A stretch of DNA of 64,000 nucleotides from Minisyncoccota bacterium (lineage in GTDB: Bacteria > Patescibacteriota > Minisyncoccia > UBA6257 > JAAZHW01), in contig DAOSMC010000001.1 in the NCBI GenBank assembly GCA_035369485.1, positions 2,283 through 66,282 of the forward strand, in the 5' to 3' direction. Every line of letters begins with the position of its first letter. The stretch's first letter is position 1. Positions 1 to 10,080 of the stretch are shown one piece after another. A program made the position numbers and the translations under genes. The notes beneath the pieces are model-generated. The model had not been told where the DNA came from. It saw nothing but the letters and a program-made list of their open reading frames with translations, and did no database searches.

Positions 1-67
1 ATAATTATAGAGCTTGCTATTTAGAGAGTTTGTGATTTGTAGAGATAATGATGGTAAAAAGAATTTT

Positions 68-101
68 ATGGGGCTGTTATGCTTTAGCATAACAGCCCCA
101 T
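68..101. repeat. Perfect hairpin H1 (15-bp stem) with conserved core TGTTATGCT-TTAG-AGCATAACA and outer arms GGGGC/GCCCC
   Basis: Left arm atggggctgttatgc at 68-82 pairs exactly with gcataacagccccat at 87-101. It shares its core with the hairpins at 208-235 and 357-411. Confidence 0.7.
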
Positions 102-207
102 CTCCAACTAAATTTGTTTGATTTATAATTTGCTATATTTGACTGTTAATTTGTAATTTGCTAATTAATACAGCACGGTAGTAAAACTAAGAACTAAATA
201 ATTTTAG

Positions 208-235
208 TTGGTGTTATGCTATAGCACAACACCAA
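208..235. repeat. Hairpin H2 with the same core (TGTTATGCTATAGCAcAACA), one mismatch, outer arms TTGG/CCAA
   Basis: ttggtgttatgct at 208-220 pairs with agcacaacaccaa at 223-235. It lies inside a larger 8-bp stem, 165-172 acggtagt pairing with 238-245 actaccgt, which also closes a second small hairpin aactaaa/tttagtt at 193-209. Confidence 0.65.
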
Positions 236-356
236 CCACTACCGTAATTTATCAAAAAACAGTAAAATTATTTAATTATTATTTGTTTATGCTTATTTGG
301 TAGGTTGTTTTGGGGTTGTTGGTCGCTTAGTCTGGCGGGAGAAGAACTATGTTGGT

Positions 357-411
357 TCTGCCGAGGCTCGCTGTTATGCTATAGCATAACAGCGAGCCTC
401 GGCCTCGGCAG
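357..411. repeat. Hairpin H3, a 20-bp perfect stem with the same core and outer arms GAGGCTCGC/GCGAGCCTC
   Basis: 360-379 is the exact reverse complement of 384-403. An additional ctgccgagg/cctcggcag pairing extends it to 357-411. Confidence 0.7.
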
Positions 412-675
412 AGAAAACAGAAGGAAGCGAGAGTAAACAACTCAACTTGAGTGACATCGGATTTACTATAAGGATTTAATTTGCTATTTGGGTAACAATG
501 AAAAAAGAAGAAAAGGGCTATGAACAAGATGAAAAAATGAGACAAAGATAAAAAGAGAAGAAAATAAATTATAGATAAGATATAAAAAAACAAAAAACGG
601 GAATCTAAGACAAAAAGCAACTTAATAAAAAACCATCTTGATTAAGCGACAGCTTTCAAATTTGGAAAATAACCT

Positions 676-704
676 CTATTAGATTTTCAACGAAAGAAGT
701 GCTA
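676..704 (+). promoter_or_regulatory. Candidate sigma70-like promoter, TTAGAT - 18 nt - TGcTATAAT, ending 10 nt before the ATG at 715
   Basis: Extended -10 tgctataat at 696-704 and ttagat at 676-681. The predicted transcription start is about 4 nt before the start codon. Confidence 0.35.
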
Positions 705-714
705 TAATTGGATT

Positions 715-2190: not shown

Positions 2191-2239
2191 AGAATTGAGG
2201 AAGTTGTGAGGCAAGCGAGTAAACAAAATGATGGAAAGG

Positions 2240-2284
2240 AAAGTGGCGGCGGAAAATTTCTTTGAAATTTTCCGCCGCCACTTT
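2240..2284. repeat. GC-stem palindromic element, copy A: perfect 21-bp stem, loop TTT, A-tract/T-tract flanks; putative bidirectional terminator
   Basis: aaagtggcggcggaaaatttc-ttt-gaaattttccgccgccacttt. Family consensus GGCGGCGG-AAAATTTC-TTT-GAAATTTT-CCGCCGCC. Lies downstream of the 715-2190 CDS. Confidence 0.75.
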
Positions 2285-2475
2285 CATTGTTTAAAATACG
2301 GGTAAAAAATTATCTGAATGATTGACGCAGTTAGAAGAGATCTTTTCTGGCTATCTTTATGAGAACAACAAAAATGAAAAATTTAATGTATAAAACCTCG
2401 ATTTTTTTATTTGCTTTTTGGTAATTATTTTGATACATTAAAAGAGATAGTTTAAATAATAAAAATCCAACTAAA

Positions 2476-4181: not shown

Positions 4182-4226
4182 AAAAAGCGGCGGAAATTTT
4201 CTTTAAGAAAATTTCCGCCGCTTTTT
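4182..4226. repeat. GC-stem palindromic element, copy B: perfect 20-bp stem, A5/T5 flanks; putative terminator of the PilB-like gene
   Basis: aaaaagcggcggaaattttc-tttaa-gaaaatttccgccgcttttt. Confidence 0.75.
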
Positions 4227-4499
4227 CATCCGTCATCAAAATTATTTCATGAATTAATTCATGAAATAATAAACAATGAAAATGCTAATTTAGTATCAAT
4301 TCTTTTATTTTTTAAAAAAATTAAAATAGTGCATTGGTTTTGAAATTCAAGTTTTATTTTTGTCATTCGGAATGAAAGAAGTAGTTTTTAAAATTTGAAG
4401 TGATATAATATTTTTACTTGCGTTTAAAAAAAGCAGATTTATCTTGTTGTCAAAAAAATGAAGTTCAAATAATCGTGTCAGCTGTTTCTGTGTTTTTTA

Positions 4500-7527: not shown

Positions 7528-10080
7528 TTATTTTAAATCCGCTAGAGTTTCTCCTGTGTAATACTGAGCTTTTAACGGCACGGAAAGAAATTCATTTTGC
7601 TCCATTAAAGGAAGGAGATTGTTTATTGTCCATTCAACTTTGTTTTCTTTGACTTCAAAAATTAGCTCATCATGAATTTGCAAAATGAGACGGATATCGT
7701 CAATTGCATTTTCTTTTTGAAGAAAGTCATTAATTTTGATCATTGCTTTTTTAATGATGTCGGCGGCTAATCCTTGAATAGGGAAGTTGATAGCAGCGCG
7801 TTCGGCAAGGCTGCGGTATTTTTGATTGCCAGAGATCAAATCCCAAACCCAGCGAATGCGGCCGCTTAAAGTTTTAACGCAGCCAGTTTGTCGTGCTTCG
7901 GCCAAAGTTTTTTCTCTCCAGTCTTTAATATTGGCAAAATCATGATAATATTCTTCAATGAATTTTTTAGCTTGATCTTTTGGTATTTGAGCAGTTTCGC
8001 TAAATGCTTTAGCGCCCATCCCATAAAGAATGCCAAAATTTAATGTTTTGGCTTGGCGGCGCATTGCAGGCGTAACTTGATCAAGGGTGGTGTTATTTAT
8101 TTCTGCCGCTGTTAGAGCATGGATATCTTGGTCATTAAGAAAAGCCTCTTTCATTTTGGGATCATCGGCCAAAGAAGCTGCAATACGTAATTCAATTTGA
8201 GAATAGTCAAAACCAACAAATTGGTAGCCTTTTTCAGCAACGAAACCTTGTCTAATTTTTTTTGCCAATTCTCCTTCTATCGGAATATTTTGAAGATTGG
8301 GATTTTCTGAAGAGAGGCGACCAGTTGCTGTACCTGTTTGATTATAAGTGGTATGAATACGGCAATTTTCATCCATTAAAGATGGCAACGGTTCTAAATA
8401 AGTGCTTTTGAGTTTCATTAATTCGCGATATTGAAGAATTTTAGCGATAGCCGGATGGAGATCTTTAATTTTGATGAGTTCATTTTCACGAGTAGATAAA
8501 AGCCCAGTGGCAGTTTTAGAAAGATGTTTGTTGTTCAAATTAAGTTTTTGGAAAATTACTTGAGAAAGTTGTTTGGGGGAATTAATATTAAACTCCGAAT
8601 TCGTTAGCTCAAAAATCTCTTTTTCTAATTTTTGTAATTCGTGATTTAATTCATCGGTTAAGCGATAAAAATGATCCGGATTAATTTTAATGCCGAAATG
8701 CTCCATTTGCGCCAAAACATTAACGAGGGGCATTTCAATTTGTTGGAAGACATTTGTTAAAGCAAGCTCTTTGATTTTATTTACCTGCGCTGTTTTGATT
8801 TTTTTCAGGATTGTTAAAATATTATCGTTGGGAAGAGGGGTTTTGAAAATGATTTGCCAAATTCTTTGAAGGGAGTAATCTTTTAATTCAGAATTGATGA
8901 GCCATTGAGCAATTTTAATATCATGGTTTAAGTTGAGATTGTAATCATCAATTTGTTTTACAATATTTTTTAAATCATAACCCACGAGAGAAAATTGTTT
9001 AATTTTATTAAAGGAATTTTGATCTTTAGGTAAAGAAAAAAATTGATCGGCTACTAATAATTCTACATTCTTATTGAGATTAATAATGGCTTCGGCTTGA
9101 GTTGGCAGAGGATTTAATTTTTGTTCTGTTTGCCATTGAATAGAGGCTTGAGAGAAAGCGTTCTCTGGCGTATTGGTTTGGGACTCTTCGGGCATTAATT
9201 GATTTACAAGACTTTCAAATCGCCATTTTTTAAAAAGAGGAATGAGTGATTCTTTGTTAATGCCATTAAATTTTAAATCAGAAAGTTTTACTTCTAAAGG
9301 AGCATTGCAATTTAGAGTTGTTAAGTATTTACTAAAAAATGCTTGCTCTTTTTGATCTAAGAGCGCAGCTAAAGTTTTTGGTTTAATTAAGCGCGCTTCA
9401 GAAGTTTTCTGAAAATTTTCATTTTCAATTTTTTGGTAAAGGTTTTCTAAGGTTTCAAAATGTTTAATTAATTCAATAGCTGTTTTTTCTCCAATTCCTT
9501 TGACGCCCAAAATATTATCAGAAGGATCGCCTTTTAACGCCTTAAAATCAATTAACTGTTTAGGACTAAGGCCATAGCGTTCCTGTACTTCCTTTTCATT
9601 ATAAATAACGGTGTCTTGAATTCCTTTTTTCATTGTGTAAACCACTACTTTATCATCGTCTACTAATTGAAGAGTGTCCAGATCACCAGTGAGAATAATA
9701 ATTTTTAAATCTTTTTCGTTAGAGAATTTTTTGACAAGCGTGCCGATGAGATCATCGGCCTCATAACCGGGAATTTCGAAATATTTAATAGGAACGGCAC
9801 TAAAAAACTCTCTTACTTTATCAAACTGAGGAATAAGATTTTCATCAGTTTTTGGGCGAGTGGCTTTATATTCTTTATATTCTTTATGCCTAAAAGTAGG
9901 TTCGGCCAAATCGAAGCATGCCGCGAGATAATCAGGTTTAAATTCGCGGATAATTTTTAAAATAATGCGAATAGTGCCATACACTGCGCCAATAGGTTCA
10001 CCTTTAGGAGTGGTTAAATTTGGCAAAGCATGAAAGCAGCGATGGATTAACGCATGAGAATCAATAAGGATAAGAGTCAT
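7528..10080 (-). CDS. polA: DNA polymerase I
   Basis: N-terminal 5'-3' exonuclease (LILIDSHALIHRCFHA) and a C-terminal family A polymerase with motifs RRQAKTLNFGILYGMGA and LQIHDELIFE. The start was trimmed to the ATG at 10080 because the track start at 10098 is TTG. Confidence 0.85.
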   Translation of the reverse strand: MTLILIDSHALIHRCFHALPNLTTPKGEPIGAVYGTIRIILKIIREFKPDYLAACFDLAEPTFRHKEYKEYKATRPKTDENLIPQFDKVREFFSAVPIKYFEIPGYEADDLIGTLVKKFSNEKDLKIIILTGDLDTLQLVDDDKVVVYTMKKGIQDTVIYNEKEVQERYGLSPKQLIDFKALKGDPSDNILGVKGIGEKTAIELIKHFETLENLYQKIENENFQKTSEARLIKPKTLAALLDQKEQAFFSKYLTTLNCNAPLEVKLSDLKFNGINKESLIPLFKKWRFESLVNQLMPEESQTNTPENAFSQASIQWQTEQKLNPLPTQAEAIINLNKNVELLVADQFFSLPKDQNSFNKIKQFSLVGYDLKNIVKQIDDYNLNLNHDIKIAQWLINSELKDYSLQRIWQIIFKTPLPNDNILTILKKIKTAQVNKIKELALTNVFQQIEMPLVNVLAQMEHFGIKINPDHFYRLTDELNHELQKLEKEIFELTNSEFNINSPKQLSQVIFQKLNLNNKHLSKTATGLLSTRENELIKIKDLHPAIAKILQYRELMKLKSTYLEPLPSLMDENCRIHTTYNQTGTATGRLSSENPNLQNIPIEGELAKKIRQGFVAEKGYQFVGFDYSQIELRIAASLADDPKMKEAFLNDQDIHALTAAEINNTTLDQVTPAMRRQAKTLNFGILYGMGAKAFSETAQIPKDQAKKFIEEYYHDFANIKDWREKTLAEARQTGCVKTLSGRIRWVWDLISGNQKYRSLAERAAINFPIQGLAADIIKKAMIKINDFLQKENAIDDIRLILQIHDELIFEVKENKVEWTINNLLPLMEQNEFLSVPLKAQYYTGETLADLK

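What the first reader, a model, noticed from the sequence alone, without database searches (positions are those of the whole stretch)
61..420. Array of three hairpins with a conserved 20-nt core and covarying outer stems in a 700-bp gene-free leader
Three extended palindromes at 68-101, 208-235 and 357-411 share the core TGTTATGCT(A/T)TAGCA(T/C)AACA. Their outer arms differ (GGGGC/GCCCC, TTGG/CCAA, GAGGCTCGC/GCGAGCCTC) yet each stays perfectly complementary. Compensatory variation that preserves pairing implies selection for a folded RNA or single-stranded DNA hairpin, not just a duplex protein operator. The shape, a conserved apical stem-loop with variable basal stems repeated about 140-160 bp apart, does not match intrinsic terminators, which need U-tracts. 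It does not match CRISPR either, because the repeats are not identical direct repeats and there are no cas genes. Candidate explanations: a REP/BIME-like mobile palindrome cluster, iteron-like recognition hairpins of an ssDNA origin, a multi-hairpin sRNA or leader recognised by an RNA-binding protein, or tyrosine-recombinase-type sites (TTATG-CTATAG-CATAA is reminiscent of arm-spacer-arm sites). The array sits directly upstream of the PEGA/beta-propeller membrane protein and its promoter.
Basis: seen in the sequence. Interest (0 to 1): 0.7.

Follow-up and report, generated by a model that had tools for sequence, protein, structure and literature searches.

The report
Palindromic operators bracketing a regulator gene
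The three "hairpins" are half of a cluster of six 20-bp palindromic DNA-binding sites for the small TrpR-like regulator encoded next to them; they are not a folded RNA, and they belong to an apparently undescribed regulator-plus-site module found across candidate-phyla-radiation bacteria.

Summary
Three palindromes (68-101, 207-236, 360-403) share the core TGTTATGCTATAGCATAACA and have different, complementary outer arms.

The window starts at the stop codon of a 142-aa TrpR-family HTH gene. Three more core copies lie upstream of that gene, so six sites bracket it.

The same 20-mer occurs in many Patescibacteria classes. In 80 metagenomic loci encoding homologues, 75 have a site upstream, 71 downstream and 67 both. 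Cores match within a locus but differ between loci.

Site position 1 tracks recognition-helix residue 80 without exception in 67 proteins (T/A with Leu, C with Pro/Ser, G with Arg/Asn). The rule also holds for paralogues in one genome. Residues 80 and 85 align with TrpR DNA contacts Ile79 and Arg84.

The outer arms are nevertheless general (at least 6 bp beyond the 16-mer in 24% of 171 sites, against 0.08% of controls) and GC-enriched. They are perfect through the centre and show no strand-specific wobble, T-tracts or conserved spacers. Their role is unresolved.

Verdict: a new variant of a known kind, moderately interesting.

The parts
1..4 (+). Last sense-codon base and TAA stop codon of the 142-aa TrpR-like HTH gene. 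The rest of the gene lies upstream of the window (L001 8862-9290). Three further sites also lie upstream of the window, at L001 8553-8572, 8588-8625 and 8818-8837.
   Evidence: Pfam PF01371 scores 31.7 bits against a cut-off of 27.
68..101 (.). Site 4 of 6. The core is 75-94, TGTTATGCTTTAGCATAACA (central TA changed to TT). The outer arms are ATGGGGC/GCCCCAT. It begins 64 nt after the HTH stop codon.
   Evidence: It matches the downstream-site class seen in 71 of 80 homologous loci.
207..236 (.). Site 5 of 6. The core is 212-231, TGTTATGCTATAGCACAACA, with an A.C mismatch at 216/227. In strains L002 and L006, position 227 is T, which makes the core perfect. The outer arms are GTTGG/CCAAC.
360..403 (.). 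Site 6 of 6. The core is a perfect 372-391. The outer arms are GCCGAGGCTCGC/GCGAGCCTCGGC, which makes a perfect 44-bp palindrome.

Best explanation
The three palindromes are the downstream half of a six-site cluster of operators for the TrpR-family HTH protein whose gene ends at window position 4.

Inferred mechanism. The protein, by analogy with TrpR a homodimer, reads the 16-20-bp dyad N-T(A/G/T)TG-N6-CA(T/C/A)A-N on duplex DNA through its recognition helix. Residue 80 reads the outermost half-site base. The site 24 nt upstream of its own ATG overlaps a plausible extended -10 element (TGCTATAGC) and most likely gives autorepression. The other sites on both sides bracket the gene, and may act as auxiliary operators or as transcriptional roadblocks or insulators.

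The site-gene-site unit is a conserved module of Patescibacteria, found in variable genomic contexts. The variable, perfectly complementary outer arms are a genuine second layer laid over the operator. They give the site cruciform or hairpin potential. Their function is not established.

What is shown: the physical linkage, the covariation and the DNA-type symmetry. What is inferred: binding itself, repression, and any role of the arms.
For: (1) Linkage. Six cores bracket the HTH gene in the window's species. Homologues that are 36-40% identical, in Saccharibacteria, Jorgensenbacteria and unclassified bacterial MAGs, are flanked by the identical 20-mer. Of 80 metagenomic loci, 75 have a site upstream, 71 downstream and 67 both. 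The 16-mer is identical on the two sides in 54 of those 67. Only 28 such sites occur in 340 kb away from the gene.

(2) Direct-readout covariation. Site position 1 against residue 80 (LS-x-QT) in 67 distinct proteins gives T with Leu 17, A with Leu 3, C with Pro 30 or Ser 13, G with Arg 3 or Asn 1, with no exceptions. MI is 1.17 bits and 0 of 2000 permutations reach it. Position 3 being G or T goes with Ser in 13 of 14 cases.

(3) The rule holds within genomes. In L137/L138 the Pro-80 paralogue is bracketed by CTATGACATGTCATAG. The Arg-80 paralogue less than 1 kb away is bracketed by GTATGAC(A/G)TGTCATAC. In L013 Pro goes with CTATGAT and Ser with CTGTGAT.

(4) hhalign to E. coli TrpR (probability 89.9) aligns L80 with Ile79, N85 with Arg84, R70 with Arg69, Q81 with Ala80 and T82 with Thr81. 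These are the TrpR DNA-contact residues listed in PMC9413887. The top fold matches are the TrpR-operator complex 1TRO and TrpR-like proteins 3FRW and 3G1C.

(5) TrpR-family operators are known 20-bp palindromes, for example TGTAcTnGTnnACnAgTACA, and about half of hisR genes are preceded by their own site (PMC9413887).

(6) Most sites are palindromic through the central bases (loop 0). A symmetric dimer on duplex DNA requires this; an RNA hairpin loop does not.

(7) No RNA signature. There is no Rfam match. The spacers are not conserved between syntenic species that keep the cores. First mismatches are G.T 44 against A.C 41, which is symmetric between strands.
Against: No binding experiment exists.

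The covariation permutation test does not correct for phylogeny; only the few within-genome paralogue pairs do.

A plain operator does not explain several features:
- The outer arms extend at least 6 bp in 41 of 171 sites, against 0.08% of controls, and are GC-enriched at 45.5% against 33.8%, p = 5e-4.
- A site downstream of the gene is nearly universal, and it often starts at the stop codon.
- Dispersed copies lie between convergent genes (11 convergent against 5 divergent).
- The genes facing dispersed sites have no functional theme.

The three window sites do not overlap the PEGA promoter region; the nearest is 323 bp from the ATG. Adjacent sites show no helical phasing. The fold-search E-values are weak (0.35-1.2).
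Confidence: 0.8

Rival explanations
1. Dual-function element. The core is the operator, and the extended palindrome is additionally selected to fold. It could fold as a cruciform in supercoiled DNA, or as an RNA hairpin at transcript ends. In that reading each site also acts as a bidirectional terminator, insulator or mRNA stabiliser that isolates the HTH gene from its neighbours.
For: The arms are far more frequent than chance and occur equally upstream and downstream. They are GC-enriched relative to their flanks. In 19 of 60 loci the downstream palindrome starts within 3 nt of the stop codon, and in 7 loci the arm complements the stop codon itself, so it was shaped in place. Many sites lie at gene 3' ends or between convergent genes. 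Hairpin energies are -16 to -42 kcal/mol. The scan called hairpins 1 and 2 terminator-like on the minus strand.
Against: T-tracts are not enriched after the arms, whereas this genome's clear terminators do have them. There is no strand-specific G.U usage. About a third of sites (59 of 171) extend no more than 2 bp beyond the 16-mer. Folding would destroy the two-half-site geometry that a dimer needs.
Confidence: 0.3
2. The outer arms are a neutral mutational by-product. A perfect 20-bp palindrome nucleates intrastrand hairpins during replication. Template switching (quasi-palindrome correction) then copies one flank onto the other, so the palindrome grows without being selected.
For: The arms are perfect Watson-Crick and stop abruptly; only 7 of 171 continue at least 3 bp after the first mismatch. 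The symmetry is at DNA level and equal on both strands. Some arms complement constrained coding sequence or the stop codon, as expected if one flank is the template. Arm length and sequence differ between syntenic species, so turnover is fast.
Against: GC enrichment of the arms relative to adjoining DNA is not predicted by simple copying of flanks. No intermediate or polymorphic extension event was caught in the ten strain-level contigs.
Confidence: 0.25
3. A REP/RAYT-like selfish system. The palindromes are copied to new intergenic positions, and the flanked gene encodes the factor that recognises them. In this reading the cluster is a proliferating repeat family rather than a regulon.
For: The gene is flanked by its cognate palindromes, as a RAYT gene is by REPs. 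There are several dispersed intergenic copies per genome, with no functional theme. Cores are homogeneous within a genome and differ between genomes. Site number changes fast, 6 against 11 between syntenic species. Several paralogous modules occur in one genome. New exact 20-mers cannot plausibly arise by point mutation.
Against: The protein is a 125-165-aa HTH with no nuclease or transposase domain. No catalytic partner gene is conserved nearby. Copy number is low, about 6-8 per genome in the genomes seen. No target-site duplications or filled/empty polymorphisms of the palindrome itself were found.
Confidence: 0.12
4. The array is a structured RNA (a multi-hairpin sRNA or leader) or a set of ssDNA hairpins, recognised as folded nucleic acid. 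Protein binding to the duplex would be incidental.
For: The predicted hairpins are very stable. The outer arms covary among copies. On the minus strand the A.C mismatch of hairpin 2 becomes a G.U pair.
Against: No Rfam family matches; the RAGATH-7 hit scores 29.6 bits against 111.8 and reflects only a generic long hairpin. Spacers between hairpins are not conserved. The centres are self-complementary. Wobble is symmetric between strands. Residue-base covariation maps to major-groove contact positions. Sites lie on both sides of genes, in any orientation.
Confidence: 0.05
5. The sites are recombination or partition sites: tyrosine- or serine-recombinase targets, or a centromere-like array such as parS or sopC.
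For: They are palindromes with a central spacer, and clusters reach 11 sites around one gene. A mobile element is inserted exactly at the centre of one palindrome in L133.
Against: No recombinase, ParA or ParB gene is a conserved neighbour in 80 loci. The rve gene 3 kb upstream in L001 is absent from the other strain contigs. Several modules with different specificities occur per genome.
Confidence: 0.04

Closest known systems
TrpR / trp operator (E. coli) and the TrpR family, PF01371
   Same: It is a small all-helical HTH that passes the PF01371 threshold. The operator is a 20-bp palindrome with TGT...ACA ends, like the TrpR consensus TGTAcTnGTnnACnAgTACA. The covarying or invariant residues align with TrpR DNA contacts Arg69, Ile79, Ala80, Thr81 and Arg84. 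One site overlaps the putative -10 element of its own gene.
   Different: It fails the NCBIfam TrpR equivalog cut-off (20.6 against 67.25), so it is not a TrpR orthologue. It is 30-50 residues longer, with a conserved N-terminal SRxEWExACW motif and a basic C-terminal RRTKYG tail. It has no link to trp genes. Its sites lie on both sides of the gene, form arrays and have extended arms.
HisR (YerC/YecD), the TrpR-family histidine repressor (PMC9413887)
   Same: It belongs to the TrpR family, binds lineage-specific 20-bp palindromic motifs, is often autoregulated, and occasionally has paralogues.
   Different: It fails the YerC/YecD model (19.4 against 42.2). HisR regulons are coherent (his genes and transporters), whereas no functional theme is found here. 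The part of the HisR paper that was read does not mention a downstream bracketing site or extended perfect palindromes.
REP elements with RAYT transposases (REPtrons)
   Same: The gene is flanked by its cognate palindromes. Additional intergenic copies are dispersed. Sequence classes are specific to each genome and each paralogue. Copies turn over fast.
   Different: The flanked protein is an HTH without the HUH/Y1 catalytic domain. Copy number is units rather than tens to hundreds. Here the centre is conserved and the flanks vary, and the symmetry is perfect. REPs are imperfect palindromes (established knowledge, not tested here).
Centromere or operator arrays bound by HTH proteins (F sopC/SopB, chromosomal parS/ParB, RK2 KorB operators)
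   Same: These are multiple copies of a short palindrome clustered next to the gene of the HTH protein that binds them. The TGTT...AACA ends resemble parS. This comparison is recalled from general knowledge, not tested.
   Different: There is no ParA-type partner or ParB-type domain. Several orthogonal modules occur per genome. The sites are strictly intergenic.

Membership tests
TrpR-family repressor/operator pair (PF01371) | The protein matches the Trp_repressor HTH profile above its curated threshold. | tested here: met
   PF01371 scores 31.7 bits against a cut-off of 27, and three distant homologues score 28.5-33.8. hhalign to E. coli TrpR gives probability 89.9. The top Foldseek hits are 1TRO, 3WRP and 3FRW, although the E-values are weak.
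TrpR-family repressor/operator pair (PF01371) | The operator is a palindrome of about 20 bp, read by the recognition helix of a symmetric dimer. | tested here: met
   The dyad is 16-20 bp and perfect through the centre in most sites. Residue 80 and site position 1 map one to one in 67 proteins and in paralogues within one genome. Residues 80 and 85 align with TrpR Ile79 and Arg84 (contact list from PMC9413887).
TrpR-family repressor/operator pair (PF01371) | Physical binding of the dimer to duplex operator DNA, modulated by a small-molecule corepressor. | not testable with these tools
   This needs EMSA, footprinting or DAP-seq. The ligand is unknown.
TrpR proper / HisR (YerC) orthologue | The protein passes the NCBIfam equivalog models and is linked to trp or his genes. 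| tested here: not met
   TIGR01321 scores 20.6 against 67.25, and TIGR02531 scores 19.4 against 42.2. No trp or his genes are among the neighbours.
REP/RAYT (REPtron) | The gene flanked by the palindromes encodes an IS200/IS605-like Y1 (HUH) transposase. | tested here: not met
   The flanked gene is a TrpR-like HTH with no transposase domain above threshold. No conserved neighbouring gene was found.
REP/RAYT (REPtron) | Cognate palindromes flank the gene and are dispersed in intergenic DNA. | tested here: inconclusive
   Flanking is met in 67 of 80 loci. Dispersed copies exist but are few, about 6-8 exact copies in the best-sampled MAGs. A complete-genome census was not possible.
Intrinsic (Rho-independent) terminator | A GC-rich stem-loop is followed directly by a U-tract on the transcribed strand. 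| tested here: not met
   The 10 nt after the arms hold a mean of 2.9-3.5 T, where the flank T content is 32%. Only 12 of 170 sites have at least 6 T. Only weak minus-strand calls were made for hairpins 1 and 2. The genome's clear terminators at 2239-2285 and 4184-4230 do have T-tracts.
Structured non-coding RNA (an Rfam family or a new sRNA/leader) | It matches a curated covariance model, or shows conserved sequence and structure beyond the hairpins with strand-specific pairing (G.U tolerated). | tested here: not met
   No hit reaches a gathering score. The best sub-threshold hit is RAGATH-7 at 29.6 against 111.8, which reflects a generic hairpin. Spacers are not conserved between syntenic species. 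G.T and A.C first mismatches are 44 against 41.
Integron attC / tyrosine-recombinase core sites | Conserved outer recombinase-binding arms, a variable centre, and an associated recombinase gene. | tested here: not met
   The architecture is the reverse, with a conserved centre and variable outer arms. No recombinase is among the conserved neighbours.
CRISPR array | Identical direct repeats at regular spacing with unique spacers, usually with cas genes. | tested here: not met
   Spacing is irregular, at 137 and 160 nt in the window and 21-352 nt across loci. The sites lie on both sides of a gene. There are no cas neighbours.

The most novel reading that the evidence does not exclude
The site-gene-site modules are two-state genetic elements specific to CPR bacteria. 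In the linear state, each extended palindrome is clamped by its own orthogonal TrpR-like dimer. In the other state it is extruded as a cruciform or hairpin. The palindromes are copied to new intergenic positions and lengthened by hairpin-templated synthesis. That would make this a REP-like self-propagating repeat family whose cognate protein is a sequence-reading HTH rather than a nuclease. It could serve as supercoiling- or transcription-coupled insulators in genomes that have very few regulators.
Probability: 0.15. Interest if true: 0.8.

Novelty: new variant of a known kind. Interest (0 to 1): 0.6.

Why it matters
Almost nothing is known about transcriptional regulation in Patescibacteria (CPR), which have tiny genomes and few recognisable regulators. 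This analysis links a CPR-restricted TrpR-like family to its DNA site. The family has 147 representatives at 50% identity with E <= 1e-10.

It also reveals a simple recognition rule at one residue and one base (Leu with T/A, Pro/Ser with C, Arg/Asn with G). This rule separates paralogous modules within a single genome. It can be tested directly with oligonucleotides and point mutants, and it could supply sets of orthogonal repressor-operator pairs.

The unexplained layer may be the more interesting part biologically. Sites bracket the gene on both sides, arrays reach 11 sites, and perfect GC-enriched palindromes reach 44 bp. These features suggest that the sites do more than bind a repressor.

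For genome annotation, the result warns that clustered 'covarying hairpins' can be extended protein operators rather than RNAs.

Tried and rejected
- **RAGATH-7.** The sub-threshold Rfam hit (29.6 bits against a gathering score of 111.8) aligns only through a generic long hairpin, so it was rejected.
- **Terminator pile-up.** T-tracts are not enriched after the arms.
- **Phage or defence origin.** The core and the protein family are absent from viral contigs. There are no PHROGs hits, and only a 15-bit chance hit in PADLOC.
- **Coherent regulon.** The 28 genes facing dispersed sites share no Pfam family. The commonest neighbour families of the module occur in no more than 8 of 80 loci and are housekeeping genes. 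The PEGA link is limited to L059 and L060.
- **Helical phasing of adjacent sites.** Rayleigh p > 0.25 at periods of 10-11 bp, n = 75. The p = 0.007 at 9.5 bp does not survive ten tests.
- **Core inserted into pre-existing hairpins.** This is disfavoured, because in 7 loci the arm complements the HTH stop codon or last codon.
- **Conserved sRNA between hairpins.** blastn between syntenic species finds only the cores and the gene.
- **Second HTH paralogue in the window.** None was found; the best tblastn hit has E = 0.006 over a low-complexity tail.
- **Literature.** No paper in the searchable library holds the core sequence or links CPR bacteria, Trp repressor and palindromes. Only the HisR paper was relevant.
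- **Not done.** The window's 74 ORFs were not screened one by one for a RAYT or Xer gene.
Full report
**1. Observation.**
The three palindromes exist as described.
- 68-101: 16-nt arms, 100% complementary.
- 207-236: 94% complementary, with one A.C mismatch at 216/227.
- 360-403: a perfect 44-bp palindrome.

The shared 20-nt core TGTTATGCTATAGCATAACA occurs only at these three places in the 64-kb window when up to 3 mismatches are allowed. The expected count is 0.01, and 0 of 100 shuffles reach three.

The outer arms differ between copies and are complementary. As single strands the hairpins would be very stable, at -16 to -42 kcal/mol.

The whole 714-nt leader folds better than shuffled sequence on both strands. 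Three perfect palindromes would guarantee that result.

**2. Context outside the window.**
The contig was recovered through the first gene of the window. Window position 1 is the last sense-codon base of a 142-aa gene, so TAA occupies 2-4. That gene matches Pfam Trp_repressor (PF01371; 31.7 bits against a cut-off of 27).

Three more core copies lie upstream of that gene:
- an imperfect copy at L001 8553;
- a 38-bp perfect palindrome at 8588-8625, with arms AATAATCGC/GCGATTATT;
- a bare perfect core at 8818-8837.

The bare core ends 24 nt before the ATG. It contains TGCTATAGC, which reads as an extended -10-like element; that reading comes from the sequence and is an inference.

The ten strain-level contigs are almost identical across the spacer. 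In two of them (L002, L006) position 227 is T, which makes the core of hairpin 2 perfect, and position 210 is T, which breaks an outer pair.

**3. Distribution of the core.**
An exact scan of one genome per species found the 20-mer in 48 stretches. Nearly all are Patescibacteria MAGs from different classes: Saccharibacteria, Paceibacteria, Wolfebacteria, Jorgensenbacteria and Gracilibacteria. Several genomes carry multiple copies. Two hits, in a Thermoguttaceae and a Thermoplasmatales genome, look like chance. The core is absent from viral contigs.

Of the 56 copies, 54 lie outside any ORF of at least 80 aa. Homologues of the HTH (36-40% identical) are flanked by the core on both sides in L049, L026, L022 and L027, and preceded by it in L036.

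**4. The family and its sites.**
A profile of 11 homologues finds 322 database proteins. Those that carry names are called "Trp family transcriptional regulator" from Patescibacteria. An exhaustive search finds 147 representatives at 50% identity with E <= 1e-10.

80 metagenomic loci encoding relatives were fetched and scanned for symmetric sites of the form N-T(A/G/T)TG-N6-CA(T/C/A)A-N:
- 75 of 80 have one within about 350 nt upstream, 71 of 80 downstream and 67 of 80 both.
- The 16-mer is identical on the two sides in 54 of the 67. The other 13 mostly differ by one to four central bases; two (L070, L101) have clearly different cores on the two sides.
- Only 28 such sites occur in the remaining 340 kb.

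Cores differ between loci: TGTTATGCTATAGCATAACA, GCTATGCTATAGCATAGC, CTATGACGCGTCATAG, CTATGACATGTCATAG, GCTGTGATATATCACAGC, GCTTTGCCGCGGCAAAGC, GGTATGACATGTCATACC and others.

**5. The core is read by the protein on duplex DNA.**
In 67 distinct proteins, the outermost half-site base maps onto residue 80 (LS-x-QT in the recognition helix) without exception: T with Leu 17, A with Leu 3, C with Pro 30 or Ser 13, G with Arg 3 or Asn 1. MI is 1.17 bits and 0 of 2000 permutations reach it. The third base being G or T goes with Ser in 13 of 14 cases. Centre position 6 covaries with residue 85.

Permutation does not correct for shared ancestry, but the rule also holds between paralogues in one genome:
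- In L137/L138 a Pro-80 gene is bracketed by four CTATGACATGTCATAG sites. An Arg-80 gene less than 1 kb away is bracketed by GTATGAC(A/G)TGTCATAC.
- In L013, Pro-80 goes with CTATGAT… and Ser-80 with CTGTGAT….

hhalign against E. coli TrpR (probability 89.9) aligns L80 with Ile79, N85 with Arg84, R70 with Arg69, Q81 with Ala80 and T82 with Thr81. These are the DNA-contacting residues of TrpR listed in PMC9413887. The same paper shows that TrpR-family operators are 20-bp palindromes and that about half of hisR genes are preceded by their own site.

An AlphaFold model (pLDDT 78.6) gives the TrpR-operator complex and TrpR-like proteins as its best PDB matches, though the E-values are weak. PDB profile searches agree.

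Most sites are self-complementary through the central bases. A two-fold symmetric dimer requires this; an RNA loop does not.

The protein fails the TrpR and YerC/HisR equivalog models, so it belongs to a separate, CPR-specific branch. That branch has extra conserved N- and C-terminal motifs.

**6. What does not fit a plain operator.**
*The outer arms are a general property.* Among 171 distinct sites, perfect extension beyond the 16-mer reaches at least 4 bp in 70 and at least 6 bp in 41. Random position pairs give 0.6% and 0.08%. Upstream and downstream sites do not differ. The same holds for the dispersed copies in reference genomes.

*Properties of the arms:*
- They are GC-enriched (45.5% against 33.8% in the adjoining 40 nt; Wilcoxon p = 5e-4).
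- They end abruptly.
- Their first mismatches are G.T 44 against A.C 41, symmetric between strands.
- No T-tract enrichment follows them.

*The downstream palindrome is tied to the stop codon.* In 19 of 60 distinct loci it starts within 3 nt of the HTH stop codon. In 7 it includes the stop codon, with the far arm complementing it. The arms were therefore shaped in place, and the core was not dropped into an older hairpin.

*The dispersed copies do not look like a regulon.* They lie between convergent genes more often than between divergent ones (11 against 5). The genes facing them have no common function.

*The module has no conserved partner gene*. The PEGA/PilB neighbourhood holds only for the window's species and its closest relative.

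*Sites turn over quickly.* That relative (L060; HTH 73% identical; same GGDEF-HTH-PEGA-PilB order) has 11 sites against 6, with different spacing and arms. Only the cores and the gene are conserved, not the spacers.

*Adjacent sites show no helical phasing*.

**7. Interpretation.**
The best-supported account is that the three palindromes are operators of the adjacent TrpR-like repressor. They form part of a conserved site-gene-site module, with probable autorepression through the promoter-proximal site. Linkage, covariation and DNA-type symmetry are shown. Binding and repression are inferred.

The outer arms are a real second layer, with three live explanations:
- selected cruciform or hairpin potential, which would make the site an insulator, terminator or stabiliser;
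- neutral growth of the palindrome by template switching;
- a REP-like copying process.

The data favour a DNA-level origin (perfect, strand-symmetric, complementing the stop codon) with some selection for stability (GC enrichment), but they do not decide.

Several readings are not supported:
- A pure RNA reading. No Rfam family matches; the RAGATH-7 hit at 29.6 against 111.8 bits is a generic hairpin. Spacers are not conserved and wobble is not strand-specific.
- Recombinase or partition readings, for lack of any conserved partner gene.
- A phage or defence origin.

**8. Comparison and novelty.**
It works like a TrpR/HisR repressor-operator pair and passes the family-level tests, but it is not an orthologue of either. 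It resembles REP/RAYT in layout (gene flanked by cognate palindromes, dispersed copies, class-specific sequences) but lacks the defining transposase.

I found no description of this family, motif or architecture in the searchable literature.

I rate it a new variant of a known kind. The biochemistry is probably ordinary. The unusual and testable features are the bracketing arrays, the extended perfect palindromes, and a one-residue, one-base specificity rule that separates paralogues.

Noticed in passing
L133 4435-4647 (compare L132 4419-4442): Two metagenome contigs are 100% identical for 4 kb, up to the centre of the palindrome downstream of the HTH gene. L133 carries an insertion of about 213 bp there. 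The insert has imperfect terminal inverted repeats (GGATTAAGGGCA... and ...TGCCCTTAAGTC) and a TATAGC target duplication, so it is a MITE-like element sitting exactly in the palindrome centre. L132 has the empty site.
   Followed up: partly
window 2239-2285 and 4184-4230: Two canonical intrinsic terminators lie after the PEGA-like gene and after the PilB-like gene. They share nearly the same stem sequence (GCGGCGGAAA(A/T)TTTC...GAAA(A/T)TTTCCGCCGC). This is a second family of related hairpins in the genome.
   Followed up: no
window 127-135, 155-163, 478-486: AATTTGCTA occurs only three times in the 64-kb window. All three copies are on the plus strand inside this leader, between the palindromes. 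The window-wide count is not above chance (expected 2.9), but the clustering is striking. Longer versions such as TAATTTGCTAT repeat as well.
   Followed up: partly
window 700-708, relative to the ATG at 715: TGCTATAAT, a perfect extended -10 element, ends 6 nt before the start codon of the PEGA-like gene. This suggests a leaderless mRNA. The promoter scan did not list it because no -35 element matches.
   Followed up: no
L001 6557-6675, 6700-6818, 7735-7853 and 7526-7593: A GC-rich repeat of about 119 nt occurs in three copies, together with tandem TTGTCATTCTGAG units. They flank the cupredoxin-like gene upstream of the locus and are unrelated to the palindromes.
   Followed up: partly
L001 5551-6522: An rve-type (DDE) integrase gene is present in this strain contig. 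It is absent from the same position in the other strain contigs that reach this position (L002, L003, L009, L010), so it is an insertion-sequence polymorphism about 3 kb upstream of the cluster.
   Followed up: no
L060 2905-3050: A tandem duplication of about 115 bp covers the promoter region and the first codons of the PEGA-like gene in the closest relative. It could be real or an assembly artefact.
   Followed up: no
L027 1369-2652 and 3297-4580: In one MAG the site-HTH-site module sits between two homologous 427-aa genes, that is, between tandem paralogues.
   Followed up: no
window 1-64000: Almost all ORFs of at least 100 aa are on the plus strand, and GC skew is positive throughout at about 34% GC. 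This fits a single leading-strand replichore of a small CPR genome.
   Followed up: no
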